Positions 6,518 through 46,440 of a DNA stretch of 64,000 bases are shown here, piece by piece. The notes below the pieces were generated by a model. The model was not told the origin of the DNA, did not search any database, and was given only the letters and a program-made list of their open reading frames with translations. Origin of the DNA: Candidatus Omnitrophota bacterium (lineage in GTDB: Bacteria; Omnitrophota; Gorgyraeia; Gygaellales; Profunditerraquicolaceae); the NCBI GenBank assembly GCA_040754255.1, contig JBFMDA010000001.1, positions 2,535 to 66,534 on the forward strand, read 5' to 3'. The stretch's first letter is position 1. Each line of letters opens with the position of its first letter. The translations under genes were made by a program, and so were the position numbers.

Positions 6518-6601
6518 CGTTTCCTCTGTTTTCCCTATTATAACAGAAAAAAATATTTTGTAAAGCACCAGCTTGAGTATTTCTATTTCTGAAAATAACT
6601 G

Positions 6602-6630: not shown

Positions 6631-6707
6631 TTCAAATATTCCCTAAAAATTTTGATAGATTCATTTATAACTTGTTGAAATACAATAATTTACGATAAGG
6701 AGATAAA

Positions 6708-7868: not shown

Positions 7869-9406
7869 AGCAGGAAATAATACTAATCCTTGATTTTGGG
7901 TCGCAGTATACACAGCTTATTGCACGACGTATCAGGGAGCACAAGATCTTTTCAAAGATCGTACCTTACAATATTACTGCCAAAGAGATACACGAACTTT
8001 CGCCCAAGGGGTTGATCCTTTCCGGCGGCCCTTCTTCGGTAGTCGATAAAAAAAGCCCTTTGCCCGATGCGCGCATTTTCAAACTCGGCATTCCGGTGCT
8101 GGGTATTTGTTACGGGATGCAGGCGATTGCGCAGCTCTTGGGCGGAAGGACTAAGCATACCAAAGAAAGGGAGTACGGAAGAGCAGAAATTTTTATCGAT
8201 GATAACCGTACGCTTTTCAGTTCGCTTCCGGGAAATTTTACCTGCTGGGCAAGCCACGGCGATTATGTGACCAAGGTCCCGCCGGGCTTTAACATTATTG
8301 CCCATACCTTAAATTCGCCTATCGCGGCAATGGGGCACCGTGCCCGCAAAATTTACGGTGTTCAGTTCCATCCGGAAGTCACCCATACCGAAAAAGGCAA
8401 TCAAATCCTGAGCAATTTCCTGCTTAAGGTGTGCAGTTGCTCTGGCCGCTGGAACATGCATTCCTTCATCAAGCAGACAGTGGAAGAAATACGAAAGACC
8501 GTAGGCACACATAAGGTGGTGCTTGGTTTAAGCGGCGGCGTCGATTCGTCGGTAACCGCCCTTTTGCTGCACAGGGCCATCAAGCGGAATTCCCGCTGCA
8601 TTTTCATTAATAACGGCTTGCTAAGGAAAGACGAACCCGACCAGATTAAGAAAGTATTCCGCAGCAACTTCAAGCTCAACCTGGACTATGTAGAGGCAAG
8701 CAAACGGTTCCTTATCCGCCTTAAAGGGGTGGTTGAGCCTGAAGAAAAACGAAAAATAATCGGCAACGAATTCGTCAAGATTTTTGAATCAGAGGCAAAG
8801 AAGCTAAGGGGGGTCAGATTTCTTGCGCAAGGCACGCTTTACCCCGATGTCATTGAGTCGCTTTCTCCGATAGGTTCGCCTTCAAGCAAGATTAAAAGCC
8901 ATCACAACGTCGGCGGCCTTCCCGAACATATGAAACTAAAATTAATTGAGCCATTGCGGGAGCTGTTTAAAGATGAAGTCCGCCAGATCGGCAGGGAGCT
9001 GGGTTTACCGGATGCCATTTTATATCGCCAGCCGTTTCCAGGCCCGGGCCTTGCCATCCGGATAATCGGCGAAATAACCCCTGAACGCCTCAATATCTTA
9101 AGAGAGGTTGACTTCAGGGTGATGGAGGAAATTCAAAAAGAAAACCTGTCCAGGCAGATATGGCAGTCCTTTGCGATTCTCCTGCCCATTAAGAGCGTGG
9201 GTGTAATGGGCGATGAACGGACATACGAAAACGTAGTCGCTATCCGCTGCGTTTCCAGCGTTGACGGGATGACTGCCGACTGGTTCAAGCTGCCTCCGGA
9301 ACTCCTGGAAAGGCTCTCGCACAGGATTATCAACGAGGTCAAAGGCGTCAACCGCGTTGTCTACGATATCACCTCAAAGCCTCCAGCGACAATAGAGTGG
9401 GAATAG
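7865..9406 (+). CDS. guaA: GMP synthase (glutamine-hydrolysing)
   Basis: N-terminal class-I glutamine amidotransferase (ILILDFGSQYTQLIARR). ATP-PPase SGGVDSSV P-loop. C-terminal dimerisation domain ending IEWE. Confidence 0.9.
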   Translation: MKQEIILILDFGSQYTQLIARRIREHKIFSKIVPYNITAKEIHELSPKGLILSGGPSSVVDKKSPLPDARIFKLGIPVLGICYGMQAIAQLLGGRTKHTKEREYGRAEIFIDDNRTLFSSLPGNFTCWASHGDYVTKVPPGFNIIAHTLNSPIAAMGHRARKIYGVQFHPEVTHTEKGNQILSNFLLKVCSCSGRWNMHSFIKQTVEEIRKTVGTHKVVLGLSGGVDSSVTALLLHRAIKRNSRCIFINNGLLRKDEPDQIKKVFRSNFKLNLDYVEASKRFLIRLKGVVEPEEKRKIIGNEFVKIFESEAKKLRGVRFLAQGTLYPDVIESLSPIGSPSSKIKSHHNVGGLPEHMKLKLIEPLRELFKDEVRQIGRELGLPDAILYRQPFPGPGLAIRIIGEITPERLNILREVDFRVMEEIQKENLSRQIWQSFAILLPIKSVGVMGDERTYENVVAIRCVSSVDGMTADWFKLPPELLERLSHRIINEVKGVNRVVYDITSKPPATIEWE

Positions 9407-12400: not shown

Positions 12401-12926
12401 TATCCGCGACCTGCCTAATTTCAAAGACCAGGACCCCGTTACAATCATAGGCCTTATTGCCAAAGTCAAACACACCATTACCCGCGCCAAACAAGAAAAG
12501 ATGGCGATAATGCTGGTGGAGGACCTGGAAGGCGTCATTGAGGTGCTTGTGTTTCCGGTTTCCTTCCAGAAAAACCATCATTACATCCAGCCAAGCCTCG
12601 TAGTCATGGTAAAGGGGAGGCTCAACTTAAGGGAAGATACGCCAAAAATCATTGCCAATGAGATCTTCCCGGTTGAGGAGGTGTATAAGCTCGTAACGGC
12701 CCTGCAGATCAATCTCTTAGGATTACGCGAGTCTATCTTTGAAAGCCTCAAAGAACTTTTAAGCGGCTCACCCGGCAAGACGCCGGTGTACCTTCGGCTG
12801 GATACCCCCAACAAAACAAACGTTCAGCTTGTGGTCGGCAAAGACCTCTATGTCAACCCATCCGAACACCTCATCAGCGATATCGAAAACCTGCTCGGAG
12901 AAGAAAGGCTCTCGTTAGTCATTTAA
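9483..12926 (+). CDS. dnaE: DNA polymerase III alpha subunit
   Basis: PHP N-terminus (FVHLHLHTQYSLLDGA), polymerase core and OB-fold. 1147 aa. Confidence 0.95.
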   Translation: MPRSDFVHLHLHTQYSLLDGACRIPELLNLAAQYNMDSLAITDHGNMFGAIDFYLGAQKAGIKPIIGCEAYIAPKSHLDKDMGSIEEAAYHFILLVRDEAGLQNLMKLVSKAYIDGFYYRPRIDKELLAAHSKGLIGLSACLKGEIPSLLQQNRFNDALKAADDFMQILGKENFYLELQENKIPDQKTVNQGLLKIAKELTLGLVATNDVHYLTKDRAKSHEALLCIQTQTTLNDPNRMRFQTDEFYFKSPEEMKEAFRDIPEAIYNTKVIAQRCNLELDFSSIHIPKYNPPNGMPKEAFLRQLCIEGIPKRYGTQSEEVVARVEHELKIIKEMGFTSYFLIVWDFIHYAKSQHIPVGPGRGSAAGSCVSFLLGITDIDPLRYNLLFERFLNPERQGLPDIDIDFCYERRQEVIDYVTKKYGQENVAQIITFGTMQARAVVRDVGRVMGMAYADVDRIAKMIPPDPNISLKDALESEPELKNLYDNDAQITRLIDTALPLEGLNRHASIHAAGVVIADKPLNNYMPLFKTQDDQITSGFDMTALEKIGLLKVDFLGLRTLTVIDETLKLIKRHKGRDIDIEKIPLDDPATYTLLVSAHTMGIFQLESSGMRDLLKKLEPERFEDLIALLALYRPGPMGSGMLTDFIQRKRNKIPIRYDHKKLEPILKDTYGIMVYQEQIMQIVSSLAGFSLAEADLLRRAMSKKIPEVMEQQRKHFTSGCVKNGLSEATAKKIFDQILFFSGYGFNRSHSAAYALISYRTAFLKSNFPVEFMTALLTSERDNTDKIVEYVNEAEKMGIAILPPDINASDGLFKIENEKSIRFGLLAVKNVGRGAIDSVINARNESKTFTSLEDLCQRIDLRLVNKKVLESLIKCGAFDSFRKNRAQMFASLEKILEFSSSSRRDKARGQLSFFDKELDARGFKDSVSLTEQIEVKEWPEPQLLAFEKEMIGFYISGHPLARYAKQLKRFASTTIRDLPNFKDQDPVTIIGLIAKVKHTITRAKQEKMAIMLVEDLEGVIEVLVFPVSFQKNHHYIQPSLVVMVKGRLNLREDTPKIIANEIFPVEEVYKLVTALQINLLGLRESIFESLKELLSGSPGKTPVYLRLDTPNKTNVQLVVGKDLYVNPSEHLISDIENLLGEERLSLVI

Positions 12927-13138
12927 TTCGTATTGCGTACAGCGTACAGCGTACGGCGTAGCGCGTAAAGCCGGTTGTTGGGTTAGGGTGAAGCCATGGA
13001 TCTGGTTATTTGGTAATGTTGTTGGTAAAAAACACGCCAAAGACCTCACCCTAACAACTAGACAATCAACCTGGCCCTTATACCACACACACCGCTTTAC
13101 TCCTTGACCTTACTTAGCCTCGACCTAGGCCTTAACCT
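12927..13138. repeat. composite heptamer-repeat intergenic element: (GCGTACN)n, inverted-repeat core, then (CCTTRAC)n
   Basis: Starts directly after the dnaE stop. GTATTGCGTACAGCGTACAGCGTACGGCGTAGCGCGT, then GTTGTTGGGTTAGGGTGAAG / CCTCACCCTAACAAC inverted pair, then CCTTGACCTTACTTAGCCTCGACCTAGGCCTTAACC. Confidence 0.8.
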
Positions 13139-13163
13139 TTTATAGTATTGAGTACGAAATCTA

Positions 13164-19183: not shown

Positions 19184-19538
19184 TACCGTATCCCGCGGGG
19201 ACTTGCATAAAGCCGGTGAATTGACTATCTGCTTCGTACACGACGCACAGATACAAACGCTCAATTCCCGCTTTCTTAAGATACAAAAACCCACGGACGT
19301 GTTAGCCTTCAAGCTCAGCGCAAAAAATGAGGAATTCCGCGCGGATATTATCATTTCCGCGGAAACGGCACTGCGTAATGCCGCGGAGTTTGGCACTTCG
19401 CCTTTTTTCGAACTCAGCCTCTATGTAGCCCACGGCATCCTTCATCTGCAGGGGTATGACGATAAAACCGTTAAAGGCACACAACAGATGTACAGAAGGG
19501 CAGTGGGGATTCTAAAGAAGAATAACATTAGTTCGTAG
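19107..19538 (+). CDS. ybeY: rRNA maturation endoribonuclease YbeY
   Basis: HGILHLQGYDD metal-binding motif. The chosen start overlaps the upstream gene. Confidence 0.75.
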   Translation: MLKIIIKNLQKKIPINPTRIKKLALSTVSRGDLHKAGELTICFVHDAQIQTLNSRFLKIQKPTDVLAFKLSAKNEEFRADIIISAETALRNAAEFGTSPFFELSLYVAHGILHLQGYDDKTVKGTQQMYRRAVGILKKNNISS

Positions 19539-19767
19539 TGCGTATAGCGTATTGCGTATAGCGTAGTGCGTACGGCCTTTACCGCGGAACGCATAACACT
19601 CTTGTTGTGTGGGTGTGGGTTAGGTCATTGGTTTGGTGAATGGGGGAAGGTAAATGGTGTAAAAAATTTACACCAATAACCTTACACTAACAACCAAACC
19701 ATTTACCTTCCCTCTATACTATACGCTCTACCTCAACCTTAGCCTTACTTAACCTAAACCTTAACCT
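19539..19767. repeat. composite heptamer-repeat element: (GCGTATN)n, palindromic core GGTGTAAAAAATTTACACC, then (CCTTAAC)n
   Basis: Starts right after the ybeY stop. The core from about 19560 to 19640 is a reverse-complement copy of the core at about 26400..26480. Confidence 0.85.
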
Positions 19768-19778
19768 TTTTCTACGAA

Positions 19779-20552
19779 ATGTCCATTCATAAAACCGAAG
19801 CGATAGTACTGAACCGCCGGCCTTTTCGGGAGACATCCCTGATCGCCGACTTTTTTACCCTTGAGTTCGGCAAGATCAACGGCTTATTAAAAGGGATTCG
19901 CACTGAACCGCAGAAGTTCTCAAGCCCCGTAGAGCTATTTTCGCTCAACGAGATTATTTTTTACCGAAGGCAGAATTCCGATATCCAGCTCGTAAGCCAA
20001 TGCGACCTAAAGCACAATTTTGATGCGATCCGCCGCGATGTGACAAAGGTAAGCCTTGCCAGCGTGATGATGGAACTGCTGCAGGCAGTCATGCCCGCGG
20101 AAGAAAAGAACGAAGAGATATTTAAGCTCGCCAGTGCGTCTCTTCAGGAAATGGAATCCTGCGTCAGGCCGGAGAAGATCGCCACTATTTTTAAAATAAA
20201 ACTACTTTCTTTATCCGGCTTTAAGCCCCACCTGGACTCCTGCGTATCCTGCGGCAATAAAATTTTAAGCCAGTCCAAATTCAGCCTTTCACTGGGCGGC
20301 CTCATCTGTGCTACGTGTAACCATAAAGACAAGAATGCCCGCCTTATTTTTCGGGGAACGATTGCCACCATCCTGCATATCGAAAAGAATGAAATGAAAA
20401 ATAATCTCAACCTAGGAATGAATCCCCAGATCAAAACAGAGCTGAACCTGATCCTGAACGCCTTCCTCACTTACCACCTTGAAAGAAGCTTCAAGGCGCA
20501 AAAGGTACTGGACGGGATGCAGAATACTATCGCGCTGCCCTTGCGCACGTAA
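19779..20552 (+). CDS. recO: DNA repair protein RecO
   Basis: N-terminal OB fold (EAIVLNRRPFRETSLI). C-terminal CxxC...CxxC zinc finger. Confidence 0.8.
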   Translation: MSIHKTEAIVLNRRPFRETSLIADFFTLEFGKINGLLKGIRTEPQKFSSPVELFSLNEIIFYRRQNSDIQLVSQCDLKHNFDAIRRDVTKVSLASVMMELLQAVMPAEEKNEEIFKLASASLQEMESCVRPEKIATIFKIKLLSLSGFKPHLDSCVSCGNKILSQSKFSLSLGGLICATCNHKDKNARLIFRGTIATILHIEKNEMKNNLNLGMNPQIKTELNLILNAFLTYHLERSFKAQKVLDGMQNTIALPLRT

Positions 20553-20566
20553 CTCTTATCTTCAAG

Positions 20567-22276
20567 ATGTTAAACCTGACAATCGCCGAAACCTTCAGGA
20601 ATATATCCCAACTGCTTGAAATACGCCAAGACAACCCTTTCCGCATAAGGGCATATGCACGGGCAGCGCAGGCCATCGAGGGGCTCAACGAAGACATCGA
20701 AACCGCCGCACAACAAGATACACTCAGGGAAATCCCCGGCATCGGAGAAGACCTGGAAAGAAAAATCAAAGAATTCATTTCAACGGGGAAAATCAGGGCC
20801 TACGAAGAATTAAAGAAAACATTCCCTGACGGCCTGCTTGAGTTGTTGCGTATCCCTTCAGTAGGGCCGAAGACCGCCAAACTGCTTTACGATGAGCTGC
20901 ATATACACAACGTTGCCGGTTTGGAGTCAGCCATCGCCAAAGGCAAGCTAAAAGGCATATTCGGCATCAAGGAAAAGACCATTGAGAACATCGCTTCTGG
21001 CATAAGGCTCCTTAAGGCCGGTAAAGAACGAATGCCGCTTTCGGTTGCCTGGCAGGCCGCGGAAAGTTTCTTAAAACCGCTTCATGGCTTACCGGGTGTT
21101 AAAAAAATTTCCTGCGCCGGCTCCCTGCGGCGCCAGAGAGAGACAATCAGGGATATAGATATTCTCCTCGCTTCTGAAGCCCCAAAAAAAATCATACGGT
21201 ATTTCACAGGCCTGCCTCAGGTAAAAGAAATTATTGCTTCCGGCAGCACAAAATCATCGGTACGCACGGCCGACGGCATCCAGGTTGATTGCCGCGCCGT
21301 CGTAGGGAAATCATTCGGGGCAGCGCTGCTTTATTTTACAGGCTCAAAAAATTTCAATATCAAATTAAGGCAGATTGCGATACAGAAAGGCTTAAAAATC
21401 AATGAGTACGGCGTATTCAGGGGAAACTCTTTTGTTGCGGGAAGGACGGAAGCTGAAATTTTCAAACTGCTGGGAATGGAATATATTGAGCCGGAGCTAA
21501 GGGAGGATACCGGCGAAATAGCGCTTGCGCAAAAAGGTACACTCCCGAAATTGATAACGCAGGATGATTTAAAGGGGGATTTGCATACGCACTCAAGCTG
21601 GTCTGACGGCAATAACACCATACAAGAGATGGCCCTTGCCGCGGCAAAGCTCGGTTACTCCTATATCGCCATAACAGACCATTCGCAGGGGCTTAAGATT
21701 GCCAACGGCCTTTCCGTAAAAGACCTTTTAAAAAAAAGAAAAGAAATCGAAAAGGTGAATACTGCATTGCGCCGGTGCAGGGTCCTTTACGGGACAGAGG
21801 TCGATATAGACTCACAGGGAAGGCTCGATTATTCCAACGAGACACTCAAGGAATTTGATATTGTCATCGCAGCGATTCACAGCGGTTTTAAACAGTCAAA
21901 AGAGAAGCTTACCCGCAGGATACTGAAAGCCTGCGATAACAAATACGTCAATATTATTTCTCATCCCACCGGCAGGCTCTGGGGGACGCGCGACGCCTAT
22001 GAAATAGATTTTGACGCGGTTCTAACGCGCGCCAAAGAAACCAACACCGCCCTTGAGATCAATTCTTATCCTCTGCGCCTTGACTTAAACGACCTCCATT
22101 GCCGCCGCGCAAAGGAACAGGGAGTAAAGCTGGTGATTAATACCGATTCTCACTCGCTTGAGCATCTCCGCGCAGCTAGATTCGGTGTTGCAGTTGCGCG
22201 CAGAGGGTGGCTTACTGCAAAAGATGTGCTCAATACGTTGCCCCTTGACGCCCTATTGAAAGCGATAAAAAAATGA
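20567..22276 (+). CDS. polX: family X DNA polymerase with C-terminal PHP domain (PolX)
   Basis: HhH motifs and a Pol-beta-like nucleotidyltransferase (GSLRRQRETIRDIDIL). PHP domain HTHSSWSDG. 569 aa. Confidence 0.8.
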   Translation: MLNLTIAETFRNISQLLEIRQDNPFRIRAYARAAQAIEGLNEDIETAAQQDTLREIPGIGEDLERKIKEFISTGKIRAYEELKKTFPDGLLELLRIPSVGPKTAKLLYDELHIHNVAGLESAIAKGKLKGIFGIKEKTIENIASGIRLLKAGKERMPLSVAWQAAESFLKPLHGLPGVKKISCAGSLRRQRETIRDIDILLASEAPKKIIRYFTGLPQVKEIIASGSTKSSVRTADGIQVDCRAVVGKSFGAALLYFTGSKNFNIKLRQIAIQKGLKINEYGVFRGNSFVAGRTEAEIFKLLGMEYIEPELREDTGEIALAQKGTLPKLITQDDLKGDLHTHSSWSDGNNTIQEMALAAAKLGYSYIAITDHSQGLKIANGLSVKDLLKKRKEIEKVNTALRRCRVLYGTEVDIDSQGRLDYSNETLKEFDIVIAAIHSGFKQSKEKLTRRILKACDNKYVNIISHPTGRLWGTRDAYEIDFDAVLTRAKETNTALEINSYPLRLDLNDLHCRRAKEQGVKLVINTDSHSLEHLRAARFGVAVARRGWLTAKDVLNTLPLDALLKAIKK

Positions 22277-22287
22277 AACAGCCTATT

Positions 22288-22410
22288 CGTTCCGTATTGC
22301 GTATTGCGTATCGCGTATCGCGTTATGCGTCCAGCGTTATGCGCAGGGCGTCTTGCGCATTGCGCAAAAGACCACGCGGAAAACCGGCTACCTCAGCCTT
22401 AACCTTAGCC
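22288..22410. repeat. heptamer-repeat element (GCGTATN)n then (CCTTAAC)n, overlapping the 5' end of apbE
   Basis: CGTATTGCGTATTGCGTATCGCGTATCGCGTTATGCG...CCTCAGCCTTAACCTTAGCC. Confidence 0.75.
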
Positions 22411-23331
22411 TTCTGTTCATCGCTAGTTATTCTATGCGGTTGTCAGCCCCGGCACCTATACAGGGAAACCCGCGTCATGATGGGGACGTTTATCGAGGTA
22501 ATTTCACCGGATGAGCGCTCGTCTGCTATTGCCTTTGAAGAAATAAAACGGATCGAGTCCCTCTTAAGCAAATACGACGAACACAGCGAAATATACAGGC
22601 TCAACAAAAACGGCAAAATAACTGCAAGCCCGGAAACATGGTATATAATGCAAAGGGCCAGGGAATTCTGGAAAAACTCAAACGGCGCATTCGATATAAC
22701 CGTAGGCCCCCTGATGAATGCCTGGGGGTTTACCGACAAGCGATATACGGTCCCCAAGAAACAGGAAATTAAGAAGGCATTAAGGCTTGTAGGAATGGAT
22801 AAAATTATTTTTCATAAAAACAATAATGTGATAGAATTTAGTATTCGCGGCATGTCGGTTGACTTAGGCGCTATCGCCAAAGGTTTTGCTATTGATTCCG
22901 CTATTAAAAAAATAAAGGCTGCGGGCGTAAAAAATTGCTTGATTAATGCAGGCGGAGATATATATTGTGTAGGTAAGAAATTCGGCAGGCCCTGGAAAGT
23001 GGCAGTGCAGAATCCTCGAGGAAGAAGTTTTTTGAGCACCTTGCGCCTGGAAGACAGCGCCATAGCCACTTCGGGGGATTATGAGCAGTATTTTAAGAAT
23101 AAGGAGGAAGTTTTTTCTCACATATTTGACCCCACAACAGGGGCTCCTGCGCAGGCCGGAATAACTTCAGTGACGGTTATTGCACAAGACTGCCTTACTG
23201 CAGATGCGTTGGCTACTTCCGTATTTGTGTTAGGCAGGGAAAAGGGGACAGAGATGATAAAAAAATACCCTCCCGCGAAAGCCTGCATCGTAGAGAGCAA
23301 TAACGAAGGAGAATTGGTAACTGTGCCATGA
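22339..23331 (+). CDS. apbE: FAD:protein FMN transferase (ApbE family), probable lipoprotein
   Basis: ApbE core from MMGTFIEVISPD at 22477. The in-frame upstream Met at 22339 gives a basic n-region, a hydrophobic h-region and a CGC lipobox-like signal. The ORF-track start at 22273 reads through the repeat. Alternative start 22477. Confidence 0.7.
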   Translation: MRRASCALRKRPRGKPATSALTLAFCSSLVILCGCQPRHLYRETRVMMGTFIEVISPDERSSAIAFEEIKRIESLLSKYDEHSEIYRLNKNGKITASPETWYIMQRAREFWKNSNGAFDITVGPLMNAWGFTDKRYTVPKKQEIKKALRLVGMDKIIFHKNNNVIEFSIRGMSVDLGAIAKGFAIDSAIKKIKAAGVKNCLINAGGDIYCVGKKFGRPWKVAVQNPRGRSFLSTLRLEDSAIATSGDYEQYFKNKEEVFSHIFDPTTGAPAQAGITSVTVIAQDCLTADALATSVFVLGREKGTEMIKKYPPAKACIVESNNEGELVTVP

Positions 23332-26318: not shown

Positions 26319-26527
26319 GGTCAAGGCTAAGATTAAGGTTGAGGGGGTAAAGGTAAGGTTAATGGTTTAGTTATTGGTGTAAGGTTGTTGGTGTGCGTGT
26401 TTTTACACCATCTACCTTCCCCCATCCACCAAACCAATGACCTAACCCACCACCCACACAACAAGAGTGTTATGCGTTCCGCGGTAAAGGCCGTACGCAC
26501 TACGCTATACGCAATACGCACTACGAA
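26319..26527. repeat. composite heptamer-repeat element in flipped orientation: (GGTYAAG)n, palindromic core, then (TACGCNA)n
   Basis: GGTCAAGGCTAAGATTAAGGTTGAGGGGGTAAAGGTAAGGTTAATGG ... GCCGTACGCACTACGCTATACGCAATACGCACTACGAAAAC. Core is the reverse complement of 19560..19640. Confidence 0.85.
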
Positions 26528-26595
26528 AACTATAGCGATTTTTTGTAATTTATGATAGAATACTACTTCGTGTTTATCCCTAAAAAGGAGATGCC

Positions 26596-29302: not shown

Positions 29303-29458
29303 TAGTTGAAATTAAGGTTAAGGGGCAAAGGTAAGGTTGATGGTTTAGTTATTGGAGTAAGGTTGTTGGTGTTTTTACACCATCTACCTTACCCATTCAC
29401 CACACCAATAACCTAACCCTCACCAAATACTCTATACACAATACGAAAGGAAGGGCTA
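29303..29458. repeat. composite heptamer-repeat element: (GGTTAAG)n, core hairpin GGTGTTTTTACACC, then degenerate TACGCAA/TACGAAA units
   Basis: Direct reading. Same orientation as the 26319 copy. Ends ATACGAAAGGAAGGG upstream of the ppdK ATG. Confidence 0.8.
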
Positions 29459-32204: not shown

Positions 32205-32207
32205 CAA

Positions 32208-32293
32208 TTCCGTTTTGCGTATTGCGTATAGCGTATTGCATTAACTGTTTTCGCAATAAGGCCTACGCGATACGCACTACGCTATACACACAA
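32208..32293. repeat. TACGC-heptamer inverted-repeat hairpin element (GCGTATT arm, 20-nt loop, TACGCNA arm)
   Basis: TTGCGTATTGCGTATAGCGTATTGC ... GCGATACGCACTACGCTATACAC. The arms are approximate reverse complements. Confidence 0.8.
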
Positions 32294-32298
32294 CGAAT

Positions 32299-33105
32299 AT
32301 GGAAGCCCTAAAAACATATCTCAAGGAAATCCGGGAAATACCGCTGCTTACCGCAGCACAGGAAATCGATTTGAGCAAAAAGATCCAACGCGGCGACGAG
32401 AAAGCCCGCAAGGATATGATCCGCGCGAATTTAAGGCTCGTGATCAATATTGCCAAGCGTTACGTATATTTCGGCACCCCATTGCTTGACCTGATCGAAG
32501 AAGGCAACCTCGGCCTGATGAAAGCCGTCGATAAATTCAACCCCAAAAAAGGTTTTCGCTTCTCAACCTATGCGGCGTGGTGGATACGGCAGTCGATCAT
32601 GCGCTCGATCGGCCAGCAGGACAAGATGGTGCGCCTGCCTGTCTATATGAATGAGCTCATCACTAAATGGAAGAAGGCAAGGGAACAACTGACCCAGAAG
32701 TTAAAACGCAACCCTATGGATGATGAAATCGCCAAGAAAATAAAGCTGCCGAAGGGCAAGGTCGATGACGTCAATTTCTGGCTGACTACGCGGACCTCAT
32801 CTCTGGATGAGCCTATCGGCGACGAAGGAGAAAGCCAGGTAATGGATTTGATCCAGGACGAAAACGCAGCCACCCCCAGCGACGAAGTCGACGCGTTTCT
32901 CAACAAACAGCGCGTCAATAACCTCCTTGAGAAAATGTCGGCAAGGGAGCGTAAAGTGCTCGATATGCGTTTCGGGCTGGTTGACGGAAAAACACATACC
33001 CTTGCCGAGGTAGCCAACAAGCTGAAAGTTTCAAGAGAAAGGGTGCGCCAAATCGAAGAAAAGGCGCTTAAAAAACTAAGAAAGTTCGTGGAGGAGCAGG
33101 GATGA
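32299..33105 (+). CDS. RNA polymerase sigma-70 family factor (group 2/3-like, regions 2-4)
   Basis: Region 2 motifs (LIEEGNLGLMKAVDKF, YAAWWIRQ). Region 4 HTH (TLAEVANKLKVSRERVRQIE). Confidence 0.75.
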   Translation: MEALKTYLKEIREIPLLTAAQEIDLSKKIQRGDEKARKDMIRANLRLVINIAKRYVYFGTPLLDLIEEGNLGLMKAVDKFNPKKGFRFSTYAAWWIRQSIMRSIGQQDKMVRLPVYMNELITKWKKAREQLTQKLKRNPMDDEIAKKIKLPKGKVDDVNFWLTTRTSSLDEPIGDEGESQVMDLIQDENAATPSDEVDAFLNKQRVNNLLEKMSARERKVLDMRFGLVDGKTHTLAEVANKLKVSRERVRQIEEKALKKLRKFVEEQG

Positions 33106-33632
33106 AAAAAATAAATTTAGAGGAGCATATCAGGAGTATTCCTGATTTTCCCAAAAAGGGCATACTCTTCAGGGATATCACTACACTGATTAAAGACAAG
33201 GATGCATTTGCCTGCGCAATAGAGATGCTCACGGAAAAATACAAATCGGAAAAAATCGATAAGATAATTGCGGTTGAGTCCCGCGGCTTTATCCTCGGCG
33301 CAGCGCTGGCGTATACGCTCCATGCCGGGTTTGTGCCTGTGCGTAAAAAGGGAAAGCTTCCGGCAGCAACCATATCGGTGAGTTATTCCCTCGAATACGG
33401 AATAGACCACCTTGAGATCCATAAAGATGCGCTTTCAAAAGGCGAAAAGGTCTTGATTGTCGATGACCTTCTGGCAACCGGCGGCACTGTCGCGGCAACA
33501 ATAGACCTTGTCGAGCAATTCGGCGCAAAGATTATCGGCATCGCATTTTTAATCGAACTCGTTGACCTCCACGGCCGCGATAAACTTAAAAATTATCCCA
33601 TCTGCTCTTTGATACAGTTCCATGGAGAGTAA
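33102..33632 (+). CDS. apt: adenine phosphoribosyltransferase
   Basis: PRPP-binding motif VLIVDDLLATGGT. 176 aa. Confidence 0.85.
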   Translation: MKKINLEEHIRSIPDFPKKGILFRDITTLIKDKDAFACAIEMLTEKYKSEKIDKIIAVESRGFILGAALAYTLHAGFVPVRKKGKLPAATISVSYSLEYGIDHLEIHKDALSKGEKVLIVDDLLATGGTVAATIDLVEQFGAKIIGIAFLIELVDLHGRDKLKNYPICSLIQFHGE

Positions 33633-33790
33633 CAGTCTAAACTCTAAACACGAAATCCTAAATTCTAAACAAATCATAAATCACAAATCCCAATGAATTA
33701 AACGAATTCGTTTGAGATTTAAGAAGTTGGAAATTGGAATTTGTTTAGAATTTAGAGTTTCGGATTTAGAATTTGCCGGATAGCTCGTTT
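33633..33790. repeat. family-C heptamer palindrome: (TCTAAAC/AAATCAC)n, centre TAAACGAATTCGTTTGA, then (GAATTTG/TTTAGAA)n
   Basis: About 150-nt imperfect inverted repeat made of 7-nt units between the apt stop and tRNA-Arg. Confidence 0.75.
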
Positions 33791-33808
33791 TTATTCAATG
33801 CAAAAACC

Positions 33809-33882
33809 GCCCCTGTAGCTCATAAGGATAGAGCAGCAGTTTCCTAAACTGCGTGCGGCAGGTTCGATTCCTGCCAGGGGCA
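33809..33882 (+). tRNA. tRNA-Arg (anticodon CCT)
   Basis: Hand-folded cloverleaf: 7-bp acceptor GCCCCTG/CAGGGGC, D-arm GCTC/GAGC, anticodon loop TTCCTAA, T-arm GCAGG-TTCGATT-CCTGC, discriminator A. CCA not encoded. Confidence 0.8.
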
Positions 33883-34091
33883 AGTATTTATTAGTCGTAA
33901 AAACGGTGACTTGATAGAAAATGGCAGGGCAAGGTTCTCCCCCTACGCCCATAAAATAAAAAAAATTGGGCTTCGGGGGATTAATTCGCAGGCGCCCTTC
34001 GGGCTACGCTTTACGCCGTTTACTCGCCGTAAAGCGTCTGCTCATTAAGATTCCTGCCAGGGGCATTTTTTCGAATAAAATATTTCGAATT

Positions 34092-34220
34092 CGTTATGCG
34101 TATTGCGTAGTGCGTATCGCGGAAAACCAAAGCTAGCGCATAACGCTGAACGCTCAACGCATAACGCCGTACGCTATGCGCTATACGCTATACGCAATAC
34201 GGAATACGCACTACGAAAAG
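34092..34220. repeat. TACGC-heptamer inverted-repeat element (GCGTATN arm ... TACGCNA arm) ending ACGAAAAGGAGGG at the RBS
   Basis: CGTTATGCGTATTGCGTAGTGCGTATCGCG ... TACGCTATGCGCTATACGCTATACGCAATACGGAATACGCACTACGAAAAGG. Confidence 0.8.
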
Positions 34221-34229
34221 GAGGGCAAC

Positions 34230-34679
34230 ATGAAGCACGTTTTCATTATAGCACTAAGCATTCTGCTATTATCAACCACCGGCTGCGCGAATTTATCCAG
34301 AAAAGACGTAGGCACCCAAAGTAATCTGCTTGAGCCTTCAATGTCTGCGCGGTTCACGGACATCCCTGTTCCTGTGAGGTTCAAATTTATCCCCAAGGAA
34401 TCCTATGCCTTCGAATCCTCCGGCGTAAGAGTAGGCGTGCTTAAATACAGGGGAAAGGCAACTGCTGATCAGGTGCTCAATTTCTATAAAGAACAGATGC
34501 CGATGAACAGCTGGATGTTGCTAAATATTATTGAATATAATCAAAGGATAATGAATTTCGAAAAAAACAACGAGAGCTGTATTGTAACCCTTTTGCCATC
34601 AGGTAGTTCTGTTGCGGTAACCGTATATATCGGCCCGATTTCGCAATATCCGAAGAAGGCCAGCAGGCCTCTAAAATAG
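34230..34679 (+). CDS. hypothetical lipoprotein
   Basis: MKHVFIIALSILLLSTTGC lipoprotein signal with an AAAGGAGGG RBS. The ORF-track start at 34176 reads through the repeat. Confidence 0.55.
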   Translation: MKHVFIIALSILLLSTTGCANLSRKDVGTQSNLLEPSMSARFTDIPVPVRFKFIPKESYAFESSGVRVGVLKYRGKATADQVLNFYKEQMPMNSWMLLNIIEYNQRIMNFEKNNESCIVTLLPSGSSVAVTVYIGPISQYPKKASRPLK

Positions 34680-36295: not shown

Positions 36296-36446
36296 TGAAA
36301 GGTTAAAGGTCCAAAGGGTAAGGTTATGGGTCTGGTTATTGGGTAAAGTAGGTAGTGTAAAAACGCACCAACAACCTCACCCCAACAACTAAACCATCAA
36401 CCTTACCTTAACCCAAGCAATACGCGATACGCAATACGCACTACGA
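36296..36446. repeat. composite heptamer-repeat element: (GGTTAAG)n, core, (CCTTAAC)n, then (TACGCNA)n ending TACGAACCT before the ATG
   Basis: Direct reading between the porin terminator and the GH57 start. Confidence 0.8.
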
Positions 36447-36450
36447 ACCT

Positions 36451-38007
36451 ATGATTTATCTCGCACTGATCTTCCACATGCACCAGCCCTACTACAAAAA
36501 CCTCCTGACCCAGGAGACGCCGGTGCCATGGGTGCGGCTGCACGGTACCAAGGACTACCTGGATATGGTCAGGATCCTTGATAACTACCCCGGCATCCGG
36601 CAGACCTTTAACCTGGTACCGTCGCTCCTTGAGCAGCTGGAAGATTATGTGGCCGGCACCATCAAAGACAAATTTTTAGAGCTTTCCTATAAGCCTGCCA
36701 AAGATCTGACTACAGAAGACAAATCCTTCATCCTTGAGCGCTTTTTTAGTATCCATAAAGAAACAGTCATCGCCTTTCATCCCCGTTATTATGAATTGTT
36801 TTTTAAGAAACAGAATAAAAAGGAGTTCAGTACACAGGATTACCTTGACCTGCAGGTATGGTTTAACCTTTCCTGGATAGACCCTTCCTTTCGAGACGAG
36901 CGGCCACAGTTAAAGCGCCTGGTGGACAAGGCGCGGTTCTTTACCGAAGAGGAAAAACTCTCCTGCCTTGAAGCGCAAAAAGAGATACTCGGGCAAATCA
37001 TCCCCGCATACAAACAAGCAAAAGAACGCGGCCAGATTGAGATTACCGTAAACCCCTATTACCATCCCATTTTGCCGCTTCTCTACAGCACTAATACCGC
37101 CAGGGAGGCTAACCCAAAAAGTGTGCTGCCTAAAACCGCGTTCTCGTATCCTGAAGACGCACAGTCACAGATTGATTCGGCAGTAGAGTTTTACAAAGAG
37201 CGCTTCGGCACGCTACCCGAAGGGATGTGGCCTTCTGAAGAAGCGGTCTCTGAACACATATTGCCCTTTATCATTAATGCCGGGATACAGTGGATCGTAA
37301 CAGACGAAGGCGTGCTTTTTAAATCGCTTAAGAAAAAGAAGCGCGATACCAAACTGTTATACCAGCCGCACCTGTTAAGAAGAGAAGGGGGCAACCTGCA
37401 CGTTGTGTTCCGCGACCGCAACCTTTCTGATCTCATCGGCTTTGTCTATTACAACCTGAAGGCAGAAGACGCGGTGAGTAATTTCATCGGGCACTTTGAA
37501 AATATCAATAAGGCGTTCAAGGGGCAGGATGTCCTTGTCACCCTTGCCATGGACGGAGAAAATGCCTGGGAATATTATTATAACGACGGCCATAACTTCC
37601 TTGAGCTTCTCTATAAGCGGCTTTGTGAATCAGAGATCATCAAAACAGTAACAGTCAGTGACTACATTAAACGCAAACCTGCCACACGCGCCCTCAAACA
37701 CCTTGCTGCCGGCTCCTGGATATATTCGGAATTCTCAAAATGGATTAATAACACCTATAAGAATAAGGCCTGGGAATACCTTTCAAAGGCACGTCTGGAA
37801 TTGAAACTTAACGCGGATAAGCTTGACGAGCGCGCAAAGCAGCTGGCATACAAGCAGATATACATCTGCGAAGGCTCTGACTGGTTCTGGTGGTATGGCG
37901 ACCGCGAAAAGGACTTCGATTACCTCTTCCGCATGCATTTATCTAACTTCTATACCATTATCGGTAAGCCAACCCCGGAGTATCTCAAGACCCCCCTTGA
38001 ACCGTAA
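36451..38007 (+). CDS. glycoside hydrolase family 57 enzyme (alpha-glucan branching / 4-alpha-glucanotransferase-like)
   Basis: N-terminal GH57 signature ALIFHMHQPYY...PWVRLHGTKDYLDM. 518 aa, similar in size to GH57 branching enzymes. Confidence 0.75.
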   Translation: MIYLALIFHMHQPYYKNLLTQETPVPWVRLHGTKDYLDMVRILDNYPGIRQTFNLVPSLLEQLEDYVAGTIKDKFLELSYKPAKDLTTEDKSFILERFFSIHKETVIAFHPRYYELFFKKQNKKEFSTQDYLDLQVWFNLSWIDPSFRDERPQLKRLVDKARFFTEEEKLSCLEAQKEILGQIIPAYKQAKERGQIEITVNPYYHPILPLLYSTNTAREANPKSVLPKTAFSYPEDAQSQIDSAVEFYKERFGTLPEGMWPSEEAVSEHILPFIINAGIQWIVTDEGVLFKSLKKKKRDTKLLYQPHLLRREGGNLHVVFRDRNLSDLIGFVYYNLKAEDAVSNFIGHFENINKAFKGQDVLVTLAMDGENAWEYYYNDGHNFLELLYKRLCESEIIKTVTVSDYIKRKPATRALKHLAAGSWIYSEFSKWINNTYKNKAWEYLSKARLELKLNADKLDERAKQLAYKQIYICEGSDWFWWYGDREKDFDYLFRMHLSNFYTIIGKPTPEYLKTPLEP

Positions 38008-38050
38008 TTTCGTATCGCGTATAGCGTAGTGCGTATAGCGTATAGCGCGT
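38008..38050. repeat. left GCGTATN-heptamer arm flanking the four-helix-bundle gene
   Basis: TTTCGTATCGCGTATAGCGTAGTGCGTATAGCGTATAGCGCG. Confidence 0.8.
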
Positions 38051-38057
38051 TAATGCG

Positions 38058-38420
38058 CTATTGGATTTTTTTACTCATATTGACTATCATAGCACAGATA
38101 TGGTCTACTAAGTCAGCTATGGGCAATAATGTTTCTTTGTCGAGATAACCAAGTTCTTTAGATATCTCAAGTTGCGTTTCAAGTTCTGCGCAAGAACCAA
38201 GCGCAAGAATAAGGAATTGTTTATGTTCTTTCGCATATCTTCTCCTGAAGCCTTCAGCAATGTTTGAAGGAATAGAGACGGCTGCACGGCGCATTTGGCT
38301 TGATAATCCATAGCGTTCATCCAGAGGAAACAGCTTTGTTGTTTTGTATATTTCTTTTGTCAATGCCATTCCCTTTTGCCAAACCTTTAAGTCTTTGAAT
38401 GTCCTGATTTTCTCTTCCAT
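38058..38420 (-). CDS. four-helix-bundle protein (23S rRNA intervening-sequence protein family)
   Basis: MEEKIRTFKDLKVWQKGMALTKEIYKTTKLFP...SQMRRAAVSIPSNIAEG is typical of this family. Start taken at the internal Met. The ORF-track extension to 38507 is repeat-encoded. Confidence 0.7.
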   Translation of the reverse strand: MEEKIRTFKDLKVWQKGMALTKEIYKTTKLFPLDERYGLSSQMRRAAVSIPSNIAEGFRRRYAKEHKQFLILALGSCAELETQLEISKELGYLDKETLLPIADLVDHICAMIVNMSKKIQ

Positions 38421-38471
38421 GAATACGCTTCTTTCTGTCTCATATAATAGACGTATAATATCTGATTTTCT

Positions 38472-38505
38472 CACGCAATACGCGATACGCAATACGCGAT
38501 ACGAC
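38472..38505. repeat. right TACGCNA-heptamer arm flanking the four-helix-bundle gene
   Basis: CGCAATACGCGATACGCAATACGCGATACGACAA. Inverse orientation to the arm at 38008..38050. Confidence 0.8.
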
Positions 38506-38513
38506 AATAACCT

Positions 38514-45915: not shown

Positions 45916-46440
45916 ATGAGCAAAACTATAAGCGAACTTAAACGATTACAAGAACACCGCCAAAACGGCAACAGTCACTCTACAAGTGACGCGTCGCAAC
46001 CTATAAACGCTGAACGTCGTGGGCAATACGCAATACGCAATACGCAATACGAAAAACGCCGTACCTACGCCGTACCCAGCGTTATTATGTATCTACTACT
46101 AACGCTCAACTTCGCTCTATCCCTCGGGCTATTGGCTTTATTCTATAGCTCAAGAACCGAACGCCAAACAACTCTAACCCAGCTTAATTCTACAATTCAG
46201 GCTATGGAACTCTCTAACGCAGCCTTACTAAGCTCGTTCACTAAAAAGTTCAATCAAGCGAGCGTCGAGATAGAAAAGGCGTCAAAGAGGACGGAGGAGA
46301 TGGGGGTAACTGTCAAAGAATTAAACAAGGAGCAAGAAGCGCAACGCTTTGCAATTGAAACCCTTACAAAAGCAAAAAATACACTGTTTAATAGAATAAA
46401 TTTATTAGAAGCAAATTTAAATTCTAAAAGTAACGAATAA
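45916..46440 (+). CDS. hypothetical TM/coiled-coil protein containing an in-frame TACGCAA repeat (start ambiguous)
   Basis: ORF 174 aa with an internal GGCAATACGCAATACGCAATACGCAATACGAAAAA at 46017..46054 translated YAIRNTQYEK. A shorter alternative starts at the ATG at 46087 (TM helix plus coiled coil). Confidence 0.4.
   Translation: MSKTISELKRLQEHRQNGNSHSTSDASQPINAERRGQYAIRNTQYEKRRTYAVPSVIMYLLLTLNFALSLGLLALFYSSRTERQTTLTQLNSTIQAMELSNAALLSSFTKKFNQASVEIEKASKRTEEMGVTVKELNKEQEAQRFAIETLTKAKNTLFNRINLLEANLNSKSNE

What the first reader, a model, noticed from the sequence alone, without database searches (positions are those of the whole stretch)
33633..33790. 150-nt perfect-architecture palindrome built from a different heptamer (TCTAAAC / GAATTTG) between apt and tRNA-Arg
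- Left arm: TCTAAAC TCTAAAC ACGAAAT CCTAAAT TCTAAAC AAATCAT AAATCAC AAATCCC.
- Centre: TAAACGAATTCGTTTGA.
- Right arm: GAAATTG GAATTTG TTTAGAA TTTAGAG TTTCGGA TTTAGAA, the reverse complement of the left arm unit by unit.
- It shares the organising principle of the TACGC family (heptads arranged as a long hairpin) but with unrelated sequence.
- This points to a general heptad-repeat-generating mechanism rather than one selfish element.
Basis: seen in the sequence. Interest (0 to 1): 0.5.

Follow-up and report, generated by a model that had tools for sequence, protein, structure and literature searches.

The report
Gene-less copy of a heptad-armed hairpin element
The 140-base palindrome between apt and tRNA-Arg is one copy of a widespread, probably mobile hairpin element; its seven-base-repeat arms match those that flank small "23S rRNA intervening-sequence / four-helix-bundle" protein genes in many bacterial phyla, which ties the long-unexplained bacterial heptamer repeats to a specific gene family.

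Summary
Positions 33636-33776 form an imperfect long hairpin: 71% ungapped complementarity over 68-nt arms, about 50 pairs, RNA MFE -45.4 kcal/mol (z -4.8). The arms have a strong period of 7.

It is not a local product of repeat generation. It belongs to a dispersed family with at least 20 copies in Omnitrophota and CPR contigs (nhmmer E down to 1e-52). Copies are wedged between stop and start codons. Other heptad hairpins nest inside them and replace them between 92-95%-identical genomes. In a Gottesmanbacteria membrane-protein gene, two copies sit in frame.

The same C[T/G]AAA heptad arms directly flank PF05635 genes in Moranbacteria, Parcubacteria, Nitrospiraceae and other contigs. With the ORF removed, those cassettes align collinearly with the window element, which keeps a vestigial ATG (33693-33695).

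The rule generalises. All 27 PF05635 genes inspected have short tandem repeats next to them, inverted on both sides in nearly all. The period is 7 in most and 8 in three. One is the TACGC-armed gene at window 38007-38509, and 14 are on plasmids, mostly cyanobacterial.

Best reading: an ORF-less miniature of an IVS-type selfish cassette. Mobility and RNase III processing are inferred. I found no paper describing the PF05635-heptad link.

The parts
33636..33691 (+). Left arm: five CTAAA-type heptads (nCTAAAy), then three AAATCnn heptads
   Evidence: Read directly. TRF period-7 arrays 33636-33670 and 33669-33693. Lag-7 match 0.69. Aligns with the arm upstream of the ATG in PF05635 cassettes L026, L034, L035 and L036.
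33692..33713 (+). Centre: conserved AATG, with a vestigial start codon at 33693-33695 (ATG AAT TAA), then the perfect 14-nt palindrome AAACGAATTCGTTT (33700-33713). The hairpin axis lies between 33706 and 33707.
   Evidence: CCAATG is kept in 9 of 13 aligned copies. In ORF-bearing relatives this ATG starts the PF05635 gene.
33714..33776 (+). Right arm: nine heptads (GAGATTT ... GATTTAG AATTTGC). Complementary to the left arm, with mismatches mostly at the variable dinucleotides.
   Evidence: TRF 33744-33774. One heptad within 33721-33734 is deleted in the ortholog L001. Aligns with the arm that follows the stop codon in PF05635 cassettes.
33772..33799 (+). 3' tail TTTGCCGGATAGCTCGTTTTTATTCAAT, outside the hairpin. 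Conserved in the Omnitrophota subfamily.
   Evidence: Present in window, L001a, L001b/L033, L030a, L032a, L032b and L023 (10905). Absent in L023a. Not a better-than-chance promoter or terminator match.
33102..33632 (+). apt (adenine phosphoribosyltransferase). Its stop codon lies 3 nt before the element.
   Evidence: NCBIfam TIGR01090, 237 bits.
33809..33882 (+). tRNA-Arg(CCT), 9 nt after the tail
   Evidence: ARAGORN. Rfam RF00005, 62.4 bits.
38007..38509 (-). ORF-bearing counterpart of another heptad family in the same window. A PF05635 '23S rRNA IVS / four helix bundle' gene (38058-38420, minus strand) lies between inverted TACGC heptad arms (38007-38052 and 38469-38509).
   Evidence: Pfam PF05635 E 8.6e-40. 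TIGR02436. Identical to NCBI Candidatus Omnitrophota protein P0209. Arms seen.

Best explanation
The palindrome is an ORF-less miniature copy of a palindromic selfish element. The full-length form is a small PF05635 gene ('23S rRNA intervening-sequence protein', or four-helix-bundle protein, an Avd relative) enclosed by long inverted arms made of C[T/G]AAAnn heptads.

**Shown**
- The window copy keeps both arms, the start codon of the lost ORF and about 14 nt of junction.
- It sits 3 nt after the apt stop codon and just upstream of tRNA-Arg.
- It folds as a roughly 140-nt imperfect hairpin on either strand.
- The family is dispersed, and its copies fill the spacers between genes.
- Copies nest, and they are replaced quickly relative to point substitution.
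- Arms change length in steps of 7 nt.
- Copies can sit in frame inside genes.
- The arms are collinear with those of PF05635 cassettes.

**Inferred**
- Copies spread by an unknown transposition or recombination mechanism, possibly in trans through a PF05635 protein that recognises the heptad arms.
- By analogy with rRNA IVS stems, the transcribed hairpin is tolerated because it is a neutral or RNase III-processed intercistronic stem. Here that would separate the apt mRNA from the tRNA-Arg precursor.
- No function specific to this locus is required.
For: **Dispersed family**
- A paralog 80% identical over 163 nt, including centre and tail, lies at another spacer in the close relative L001.
- A metagenome scan found 11 contigs.
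- nhmmer then found at least 20 distinct copies, 2-4 per 8-11 kb contig, with E down to 1e-52.

**Context**
- Copies start 2-20 nt after a stop codon and end 1-17 nt before a start codon.
- Ten copies lie in sense with co-directional neighbours, against one in antisense.

**Turnover**
- In 6.5 kb of synteny at 92-95% identity, three of four long spacers carry different hairpin elements in the window and in L001.

**Nesting and heptad indels**
- An ATAGACC-type hairpin sits inside two family copies in L030.
- Whole-heptad (7-nt) indels occur in L001a and L032b.

**In-frame insertion**
- Two stop-free copies lie in a Gottesmanbacteria membrane-protein ORF.
- The first is absent from a 96%-identical homolog, and most homologs lack both.

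**Link to PF05635**
- L026 carries the family's arms around a PF05635 gene.
- Seven loci from six homologs of that protein were read. L034, L035, L036, L039 and L042 carry C[T/G]AAA heptad arms against both the ATG and the stop codon. L043 repeats L042. L040 has only the upstream arm.
- The L035 upstream arm reads ...CTAAACAAATCATAAATCACAA|ATG, which is the 25-mer core of the window element.
- ORF-deleted cassettes match the mini-element HMM across most of the hairpin (model positions 3-144; E 1.9e-10 to 4.1e-8 for L034, L035 and L039; weaker and partial for L036 and L042), and L026, L034, L035 and L036 align collinearly with it.

**Generality**
- The 90-nt flanks of 13 PF05635 genes peak at lag 7 (0.446) and lag 14 (0.408), against 0.25-0.31 at other lags.
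- Homologs of the window's own PF05635 protein carry TACGC arms (three loci) or GGTAC arms (one).
- 14 of 14 plasmid-borne PF05635 genes have flanking short tandem repeats, inverted on both sides in most; the period is 7 in 11 and 8 in 3.
- In 40 kb of a Calothrix plasmid, the only two period-7 arrays flank the gene.

**Literature**
- IVSs are described as selfish elements bordered by complementary sequences. They are cut by RNase III, some carry the S23p ORF, and mobility has long been suspected (PMC4990558).
Against: - No target-site duplication or clean empty site was found. At the one near-isogenic site, a different small palindrome occupies the position.
- PF05635 is not a known transposase, and no transposase was linked to the elements.
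- The window holds only one copy of this family.
- No clade-A PF05635 gene was seen in an Omnitrophota genome.
- Copies are 77-92% identical, so there is no sign of a very recent burst.
- Heptad-rich sequence can inflate nhmmer scores, and the 25-mer scan biases which copies were recovered.
- Covariation is uninformative: 22 consensus pairs, only 1 with a compensatory change.
- Sense and antisense fold equally well, so nothing shows selection at the RNA level.
- In-frame copies in a coding region argue against obligatory RNase III cleavage.
- The conserved tail is unexplained.
- The reverse history, in which PF05635 genes insert into pre-existing hairpins, is not excluded.
Confidence: 0.72

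Rival explanations
1. Host-functional intercistronic RNA structure. The hairpin would act for this locus as a 3' stabiliser or terminator of apt mRNA, or as the processing site that releases the tRNA-Arg precursor. It might have been exapted from a repeat.
For: - It lies in the sense orientation, 3 nt after the apt stop and 9 nt (counting the tail) before the tRNA.
- It is retained in L001, while three neighbouring spacers were swapped.
- It forms a stable stem with a 17-bp uninterrupted core.
- The orientation bias across the family is 10:1.
Against: - More distant relatives with the same apt-tRNA-Arg synteny have unrelated spacers of 30-290 nt.
- The same element sits next to unrelated genes and inside an ORF.
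- No terminator-like or promoter-like signal exceeds chance.
- No Rfam family matches. The only hits are plant miRNA hairpins far below threshold.
- The antisense strand folds as well as the sense strand.
- The orientation bias could equally reflect the direction of replication.
Confidence: 0.15
2. In-situ product of a general heptad-generating process: polymerase slippage plus quasi-palindrome template switching, with no transfer between sites.
For: - Heptads are the unit of length change.
- Many unrelated heptads form hairpins in one genome.
- Heptanucleotide repeats are the commonest long simple repeats in bacteria, and slippage has been proposed as the cause (Mrazek 2007, as cited in PMC4679880).
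Against: - Non-repetitive parts (centre CCAATGnnTTAAACGAATTCGTTTGrGATTTAAG, and the tail) are conserved at unlinked loci and in different metagenomes.
- The arms are collinear with cassette arms from other phyla.
- Whole elements are replaced between near-identical genomes.
Confidence: 0.05
3. Ordinary MITE or REPIN: a deletion derivative of a transposase-encoding IS, or a REP doublet mobilised by a RAYT (Y1 HUH) transposase. On this view the association with PF05635 genes is incidental.
For: - It is a multi-copy, intergenic, palindromic element of MITE size, and copies nest inside one another.
- Elements that form hairpins in single-stranded DNA are typical substrates of IS200/IS605 and RAYT enzymes (my own knowledge).
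Against: - No target-site duplication was found.
- No transposase lies next to any copy in the ORFs inspected.
- REPs are 20-40 nt and G+C-rich with GTAG or CGTC heads (PMC3733652), which is unlike this element.
- The only ORF repeatedly enclosed by the arms is PF05635, in 27 of 27 loci inspected.
Confidence: 0.08

Closest known systems
23S rRNA intervening sequences (IVS) of Leptospira and Coxiella, which carry the S23p / PF05635 ORF
   Same: - A selfish insert bordered by long complementary sequences that form a stem.
- The ORF, when present, belongs to the same protein family (PF05635 / TIGR02436).
- ORF-less short forms also exist (the Salmonella-type IVS; my own knowledge).
- The distribution is sporadic and apparently horizontal (PMC4990558).
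   Different: - Here the elements lie between protein-coding genes, next to a tRNA gene and even inside ORFs. They are not in rRNA helices 25 or 45.
- The arms are tandem heptads, a feature not reported for IVS in the papers I could read.
- RNase III excision is untested here.
Rickettsia palindromic elements (RPE) and bacterial MITEs in general
   Same: - 100-170 nt palindromic, multi-copy and lacking a gene.
- Inserted in intergenic regions and, in frame, inside protein-coding genes (L025).
- Present or absent between close relatives.
   Different: - No target-site duplication was found, and there is no transposase-bearing parent.
- The parent-like form carries a four-helix-bundle protein gene.
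- The arms are internally periodic (period 7).
- The family spans several phyla.
Cyanobacterial STRR heptamers and other intergenic heptamer repeats (TAACTGA repeats of Beggiatoaceae, Cyanobacteria and Bacteroidetes; PMC4679880)
   Same: - Tandem heptanucleotide units in intergenic regions, often ending a few nt before start codons.
- The phylogenetic distribution is patchy and suggests horizontal spread, with 'no mechanism evident'.
   Different: - Those repeats were described as direct arrays of unknown origin.
- Here the arrays come as inverted pairs that form hairpins, and I find them flanking PF05635 genes, including in Nostoc, Calothrix, Anabaena and Riemerella plasmids.
ERIC/IRU and Correia (NEMIS) elements
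   Same: Imperfect palindromes of about 127-150 bp in transcribed intergenic regions that fold as long RNA hairpins. Correia elements are RNase III substrates (my own knowledge).
   Different: - The sequence is unrelated.
- Those elements have no heptad periodicity.
- They are confined to narrow taxa.
- They have no associated ORF-bearing form.
REP / BIME / REPIN-RAYT systems
   Same: Intergenic palindromic repeats proposed to be non-autonomous mobile DNA that depends on a single-copy protein gene flanked by the repeats (PMC3116915).
   Different: - REPs are short and G+C-rich with conserved tetranucleotide heads.
- The associated protein there is a Y1 transposase. Here it is a PF05635 four-helix bundle with no known catalytic activity.

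Membership tests
23S rRNA intervening sequence (IVS) | Inserted in a 23S (or 16S) rRNA gene helix | tested here: not met
   The element lies between apt and tRNA-Arg. Other copies lie between protein-coding genes or inside an ORF.
23S rRNA intervening sequence (IVS) | Bordered by complementary sequences that form an extended stem | tested here: met
   Arms 33639-33706 and 33707-33774. MFE -45.4 kcal/mol, z -4.8.
23S rRNA intervening sequence (IVS) | May enclose a PF05635 (S23p) ORF | tested here: met
   Met for the family, not for this copy. L026, L034, L035, L036, L039 and L042 carry PF05635 genes between C[T/G]AAA arms. The window copy keeps only the ATG.
23S rRNA intervening sequence (IVS) | Excised from the transcript by RNase III | not testable with these tools
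   [quoted passage not shown] The 17-bp core plus flanking helices is only compatible with a substrate.
MITE | Many dispersed copies of a short non-coding element with terminal inverted repeats | tested here: met
   At least 20 copies at distinct loci.
MITE | Target-site duplication flanking each copy | tested here: not met
   No direct repeats are visible at the ends of the copies. The filled versus alternative site comparison shows none.
MITE | Ends shared with an autonomous element that encodes a transposase | tested here: inconclusive
   The ends are shared with an ORF-bearing element, but the ORF is PF05635, which has no known transposase activity.
Rickettsia palindromic elements (RPE) | Palindromic element inserted in frame in protein-coding genes and translated | tested here: met
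   L025 has two stop-free copies in one ORF. They are absent from homologs. This is a resemblance in behaviour only. There is no sequence relationship to RPE, and the hosts are not Rickettsia.
REP / REPIN-RAYT | 20-40 nt G+C-rich palindromes with a GTAG or CGTC head, associated with a RAYT gene | tested here: not met
   The element is about 140 nt and A+T-rich, with no such head. No RAYT was seen among the neighbouring ORFs inspected. A genome-wide search for RAYT was not possible.
Tandem heptanucleotide repeats (STRR / LSSR class) | Head-to-tail repeats of a 7-nt unit in intergenic DNA | tested here: met
   TRF period 7, 3.6-5 copies per array, 75-83% matches. Lag-7 excess about 7 sd above shuffles.

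The most novel reading that the evidence does not exclude
PF05635 four-helix-bundle (Avd-like, pentameric) proteins and the inverted heptad arrays around their genes together form a widespread class of mobile cassette that has not been recognised. In effect these are IVS elements living outside rRNA.

On this reading:
- The protein recognises its own heptad arms. Arms typically hold about five units, which would match a pentamer.
- ORF-less miniatures such as the apt-tRNA-Arg palindrome are mobilised in trans.
- This would explain the origin of the heptamer tandem repeats (STRR, TAACTGA and similar) that have puzzled work on cyanobacterial, Bacteroidota and Beggiatoaceae genomes since 1990.

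The physical association is shown here in 27 of 27 loci. The functional link is not.
Probability: 0.35. Interest if true: 0.85.

Novelty: new variant of a known kind. Interest (0 to 1): 0.68.

Why it matters
**Two unexplained observations that may be one**
- Short tandem heptamer repeats are the commonest long simple repeats in bacterial genomes. In cyanobacteria (STRR) and Beggiatoaceae (TAACTGA) neither their origin nor their function is established.
- PF05635 '23S rRNA IVS / four helix bundle' proteins are abundant; each of two searches here returned about 8000 relatives. Their function is unknown.
- The palindrome in this window connects the two. Its arms are those of a PF05635 cassette, and PF05635 genes in at least eight phyla are enclosed by inverted heptad (sometimes octad) arrays.

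**Consequences if the link holds**
- It gives a concrete, testable model for what IVS elements are.
- It suggests why heptamer arrays cluster just after stop codons and just before start codons.
- It suggests what the Avd-like proteins bind.
- It flags a source of assembly breaks, mis-called start codons and in-frame insertions in CPR and Omnitrophota genomes.

Tried and rejected
- **Rfam**, E-value mode, over 33000-34600. Only the tRNA matched. The hairpin drew plant miRNA precursor models at 33.6 and 21.9 bits against gathering scores of 90 and 102. These are generic long-hairpin matches and I rejected them.
- **Promoter and terminator scans.** Counts were at shuffle level. The tail cannot be called a promoter, and the hairpin is not an intrinsic terminator.
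- **Two-part palindrome pattern in viral contigs.** Five hits, all chance matches in A+T-rich viruses. The specific 27-mer gave 0 hits. There is no sign of a phage origin.
- **Exact look-up of the apt protein.** Not on record.
- **Covariation.** The stem is too conserved: 1 compensatory pair in 22. It neither supports nor refutes selection for structure.
- **Strand asymmetry.** G-U against A-C content and sense against antisense MFE were compared across 17 copies. There is no consistent difference.
- **Open reading frames in the element.** All intergenic copies have stops in all three frames. Only the two in-gene L025 copies are open, so a peptide-coding role is rejected.
- **Target-site duplication.** None was seen.
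- **Elhai et al. 2008** on small dispersed repeats in Nostoc could not be read. My comparison with that work rests on memory.
- **Not done.** I did not survey the window or the source genome for transposases, RAYT or RNase III.

Full report
**1. The observation**

- The left arm (33636-33691) is TCTAAAC TCTAAAC ACGAAAT CCTAAAT TCTAAAC AAATCAT AAATCAC AAATCCC.
- The centre holds a perfect 14-nt palindrome, AAACGAATTCGTTT (33700-33713).
- The right arm (33714-33776) reads as nine heptads, GAGATTT ... GATTTAG AATTTGC.
- apt ends at 33632 (TIGR01090), and tRNA-Arg(CCT) starts at 33809.

Period 7 is strongly non-random. The lag-7 match fraction is 0.556, against 0.302 +/- 0.037 in 2000 shuffles. 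TRF reports three period-7 arrays.

The palindrome is also real.
- Arms 33639-33706 and 33707-33774.
- RNA MFE -45.4 kcal/mol, z -4.8.
- DNA MFE -25.8 kcal/mol, z -4.2.
- The complementary strand folds at -49.8 kcal/mol, z -6.5.

It is not 'perfect', though. Ungapped complementarity is 71%. The MFE has about 50 pairs including 4 G-U. The inner third pairs poorly. Mismatches concentrate on the two variable bases of each 5+2 unit (CTAAA+nn).

**2. It is a copy of a dispersed family**

The window comes from a Candidatus Omnitrophota genome.
- The apt protein is 98% identical to that of MAG contig JAQUON010000003 (L001).
- A window protein is identical to an NCBI Omnitrophota protein (P0209).

L001 has the same element at the same place, with one heptad (7 nt) deleted. 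It also has a second copy, about 80% identical over 163 nt including the non-repetitive centre and a 28-nt tail. That copy lies downstream of tRNA-Arg, where the window has something else.

A single metagenome scan with a 25-mer found 11 contigs. An HMM built from four full copies then found at least 20 distinct copies in those contigs, 2-4 per 8-11 kb, with E down to 1e-52. The window itself holds only this one copy.

Copies typically begin 2-20 nt after a stop codon and end 1-17 nt before the next start codon. Where both neighbours point the same way, the element is in sense 10 times and in antisense once. Copies from the Omnitrophota-type contigs are 77-92% identical. Copies from other contigs are 67-82% identical to them.

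**3. Signs of mobility**

(a) Turnover. Within the 6.5 kb shared by the window and L001 (92-95% identity), three of four long spacers carry different elements.

| Spacer | Window | L001 |
|---|---|---|
| ppdK-sigma | TACGC hairpin | ATAGACC/ATAGTC hairpin |
| tRNA-Arg to lipoprotein gene | tRNA 3'-end duplication plus a TACGC hairpin | CTAAA-family copy |
| porin-GH57 | GGTTA-type palindrome plus a TACGC arm | PF05635 gene between ATAGACC arms |

(b) Nesting. Two copies in L030 carry an ATAGACC-type hairpin in their centre, and one also has a small G+C-rich hairpin in its left arm.

(c) In-frame insertion. In L025, two copies lie inside one membrane-protein ORF. Named homologs place this contig in Candidatus Gottesmanbacteria (CPR).
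- These are the only copies with an open frame.
- A 96%-identical homolog lacks the first copy, and most homologs lack both.
- At the DNA level the flanks are identical, and the homolog has a different 31-nt palindrome at that site.
- Another homolog (P0002) appears to carry a family copy in a different frame at the second site.

(d) Length changes come in heptads.

No target-site duplication was seen.

**4. What the arms belong to**

In L026 the same arms enclose a 120-aa gene of Pfam PF05635 ('23S rRNA intervening sequence protein'; NCBIfam TIGR02436 'four helix bundle protein').

I retrieved homologs of that protein (64-78% identical) and read their contigs. The named sources are Moranbacteria (L036), Parcubacteria (L042), Woesebacteria (L040) and a complete Nitrospiraceae genome (L039). 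L034 and L035 have no named source.
- L034, L035, L036, L039 and L042 have C[T/G]AAAnn heptad arms against the ATG and the stop codon.
- L040 has only the upstream arm.
- The L035 upstream arm ends ...CTAAACAAATCATAAATCACAA|ATG, which is the 25-mer core of the window element.

With the ORF removed, L034, L035 and L039 match the mini-element HMM over most of the hairpin (E 1.9e-10 to 4.1e-8); L036 and L042 match only partially. L026, L034, L035 and L036 align collinearly with the window copy. The layout is [left arm ... ATG] + about 14 nt + [(TA)GTTTGA ... right arm]. The window copy keeps the ATG at 33693-33695 (ATG AAT TAA), and CCAATG is conserved in 9 of 13 aligned copies.

The simplest reading is that the palindrome is an ORF-deletion miniature of such a cassette, in the way a MITE derives from an IS. 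The reverse history, in which ORFs insert into hairpin loops, is not excluded. Against it, the arms track the protein clade across phyla rather than the host.

**5. The principle is general**

The window's own PF05635 gene (38058-38420, minus strand) lies between inverted TACGC arms (38007-38052 and 38469-38509).

Homologs of that protein, 64-73% identical, carry GCGTA/TACGC arms in three loci and GGTAC heptads in one.

The CTAAA-associated proteins are only 10-21% identical to the TACGC- and ATAGACC-associated ones.

Pooled over the 90-nt flanks of 13 independent PF05635 genes, autocorrelation peaks at lag 7 (0.446) and lag 14 (0.408), against 0.25-0.31 at other lags. The best lag is 7 or 14 in 20 of 26 flanks.

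A tblastn search of plasmids found 44 records, mostly Nostoc, Calothrix, Anabaena and relatives. I inspected 14, and every gene has short tandem repeats next to it, inverted on both sides in most.
- Eleven have period 7. Examples are GGGAGTA, GGGTGTA, AGGAGTC, GGGAACA, GGTGACA and CTCTGCC, and AAGGTTC in Riemerella (Bacteroidota).
- Three have period 8: Leptolyngbya, Gemmatirosa and Oscillatoria.

Such arrays are rare in the surrounding DNA. There are 2-5 per 25-40 kb, and 5 of 11 abut the PF05635 gene. In 40 kb of a Calothrix plasmid, the only two arrays flank the gene. A Nostoc plasmid also holds an ORF-less hairpin with the same heptad as its cassette (L056 24402-24487).

**6. How it most likely works**

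Shown:
- A long hairpin-forming, gene-less copy of a dispersed family, packed into an operon spacer.
- Arms shared with PF05635 cassettes.
- Rapid turnover and heptad-step length changes.

Inferred:
- The element is selfish DNA.
- It is tolerated because it sits between genes and, once transcribed, forms a stem that is neutral or is processed. This is how rRNA IVS stems are cut by RNase III (PMC4990558).
- At this locus, that would separate the apt mRNA from the tRNA-Arg precursor.

Unknown:
- The mechanism of movement. The IVS literature has long suspected that the ORF contributes to mobility (Ralph and McClelland 1993, as cited in PMC4990558).
- PF05635 is related to Avd, the nucleic-acid-binding pentameric partner of DGR reverse transcriptases (PMC10053308; weak NF033474 matches).
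- A protein that reads a 7-nt register on its own arms would explain the 5+2 unit structure. This is speculation.

Against an RNA-only function:
- Both strands fold equally well.
- Covariation is uninformative.
- Two copies are translated in frame.
- More distant relatives with the same apt-tRNA-Arg synteny have unrelated spacers.

**7. Comparison with what is known**

The element works like an IVS or a MITE/RPE. It fails a defining test of each.
- It is not in rRNA.
- It has no target-site duplication and no transposase parent.
- It is unrelated in sequence to ERIC, Correia, REP or RPE.

It does belong to the descriptive class of tandem heptanucleotide repeats. For that class, published work proposes slippage (Mrazek 2007, cited in PMC4679880) or translational regulation, and notes a patchy, apparently horizontal distribution with 'no mechanism evident' (PMC4679880).

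In the papers I could search, PF05635 is called functionally uncharacterised (bioRxiv 10.1101/2024.02.27.582315; PMC4990558). None links it to heptad arms. The library is incomplete, and Elhai et al. 2008 could not be read.

**8. Verdict**

The palindrome is real, imperfect, and a member of a widespread family. The 'not a selfish element' conclusion is wrong. The principle appears to be the architecture of PF05635 (IVS-type) cassettes and their gene-less derivatives.

I rate it a new variant of a known kind, interest 0.68.

Noticed in passing
window 33866-33882 and 34049-34065: The last 17 nt of tRNA-Arg (GATTCCTGCCAGGGGCA) are repeated exactly 166 nt downstream. This looks like the att scar of a small integrated or decayed element. 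L001 lacks the segment and has a CTAAA-family copy there instead.
   Followed up: partly
window 38007-38509: A PF05635 '23S rRNA IVS / four helix bundle' gene on the minus strand, antisense to all its neighbours, lies in the loop of a TACGC-heptad hairpin.
   Followed up: yes
window 12922-12974, 19527-19579, 22284-22338, 26488-26530, 32205-32295, 34089-34220, 36413-36452, 40250-40307, 45007-45053, 45858-45920, 46014-46066: TACGC-family arrays follow an orientation rule. TTCG-(nnGCGTA)n comes right after stop codons, and (TACGCnn)n-TACGAA comes right before a Shine-Dalgarno sequence or start codon. 'ACGAA' precedes several start codons by 0-15 nt, for example at 19779, 32299, 36451, 43997 and 45916.
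   Followed up: partly
window 32205-32295 versus L001 2105-2190: The ppdK-sigma factor spacer holds a TACGC hairpin in the window. In the 95%-identical relative it holds an ATAGACC/ATAGTC hairpin.
   Followed up: yes
window 19575-19775, 26323-26491 (inverted), 29329-29424, 36316-36408, 13025-13141: A second family of long palindromes (GGTTA/TAACC-rich, loop GGTGTAAAAA..TTACACC, MFE down to -58 kcal/mol). It is often joined to a TACGC arm on one side and to CCTTAG/CCTAAG hexad runs on the other. Its nature is unknown.
   Followed up: partly
window 40316-40780: An ORF with Pro-Lys-rich repeats encoded by CCTAAGCCTAAA-type hexamers resembles the non-coding CCTTAG/CCTAAG arrays at 13100-13140, 19735-19768, 22390-22412 and 40800-40850. 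It has no Pfam match.
   Followed up: no
window 44808-44851, 46014-46066, 22284-22338: Period-7 arrays (GAGCTnn and TACGCnn types) lie inside long ORFs (43997-45001, 45916-46440 and 22273-23331). They may be in-frame insertions or mis-set start codons.
   Followed up: no
L025 5483-5608, 5955-6082 and 6090-6120: A Gottesmanbacteria membrane-protein gene carries two in-frame family copies followed by an in-frame (GGGTTAT)4 array. Homologs carry other unrelated inserts at the same two loop positions, so these sites are insertion hot spots.
   Followed up: yes
L004 3660-3745: A more distant relative (apt 69% identical) has, in its apt-tRNA-Arg spacer, a hairpin built from yet another heptad (GTTTCnn / nnGAAAC).
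   Followed up: no
L056 (Nostoc edaphicum pNe_5) 19903-20402; L057 (Calothrix brevissima plasmid1) 19908-20418: Cyanobacterial PF05635 genes sit between inverted STRR-like heptamer arrays. In the Nostoc case, the cassette is wedged between the two ribonucleotide reductase subunit genes on the opposite strand.
   Followed up: partly
L032 (oriented) 6592-9008: Two family copies bracket a 104-aa ORF between lexA and a dinB-like polymerase IV gene. The copies therefore sit inside an SOS-type gene cluster.
   Followed up: no
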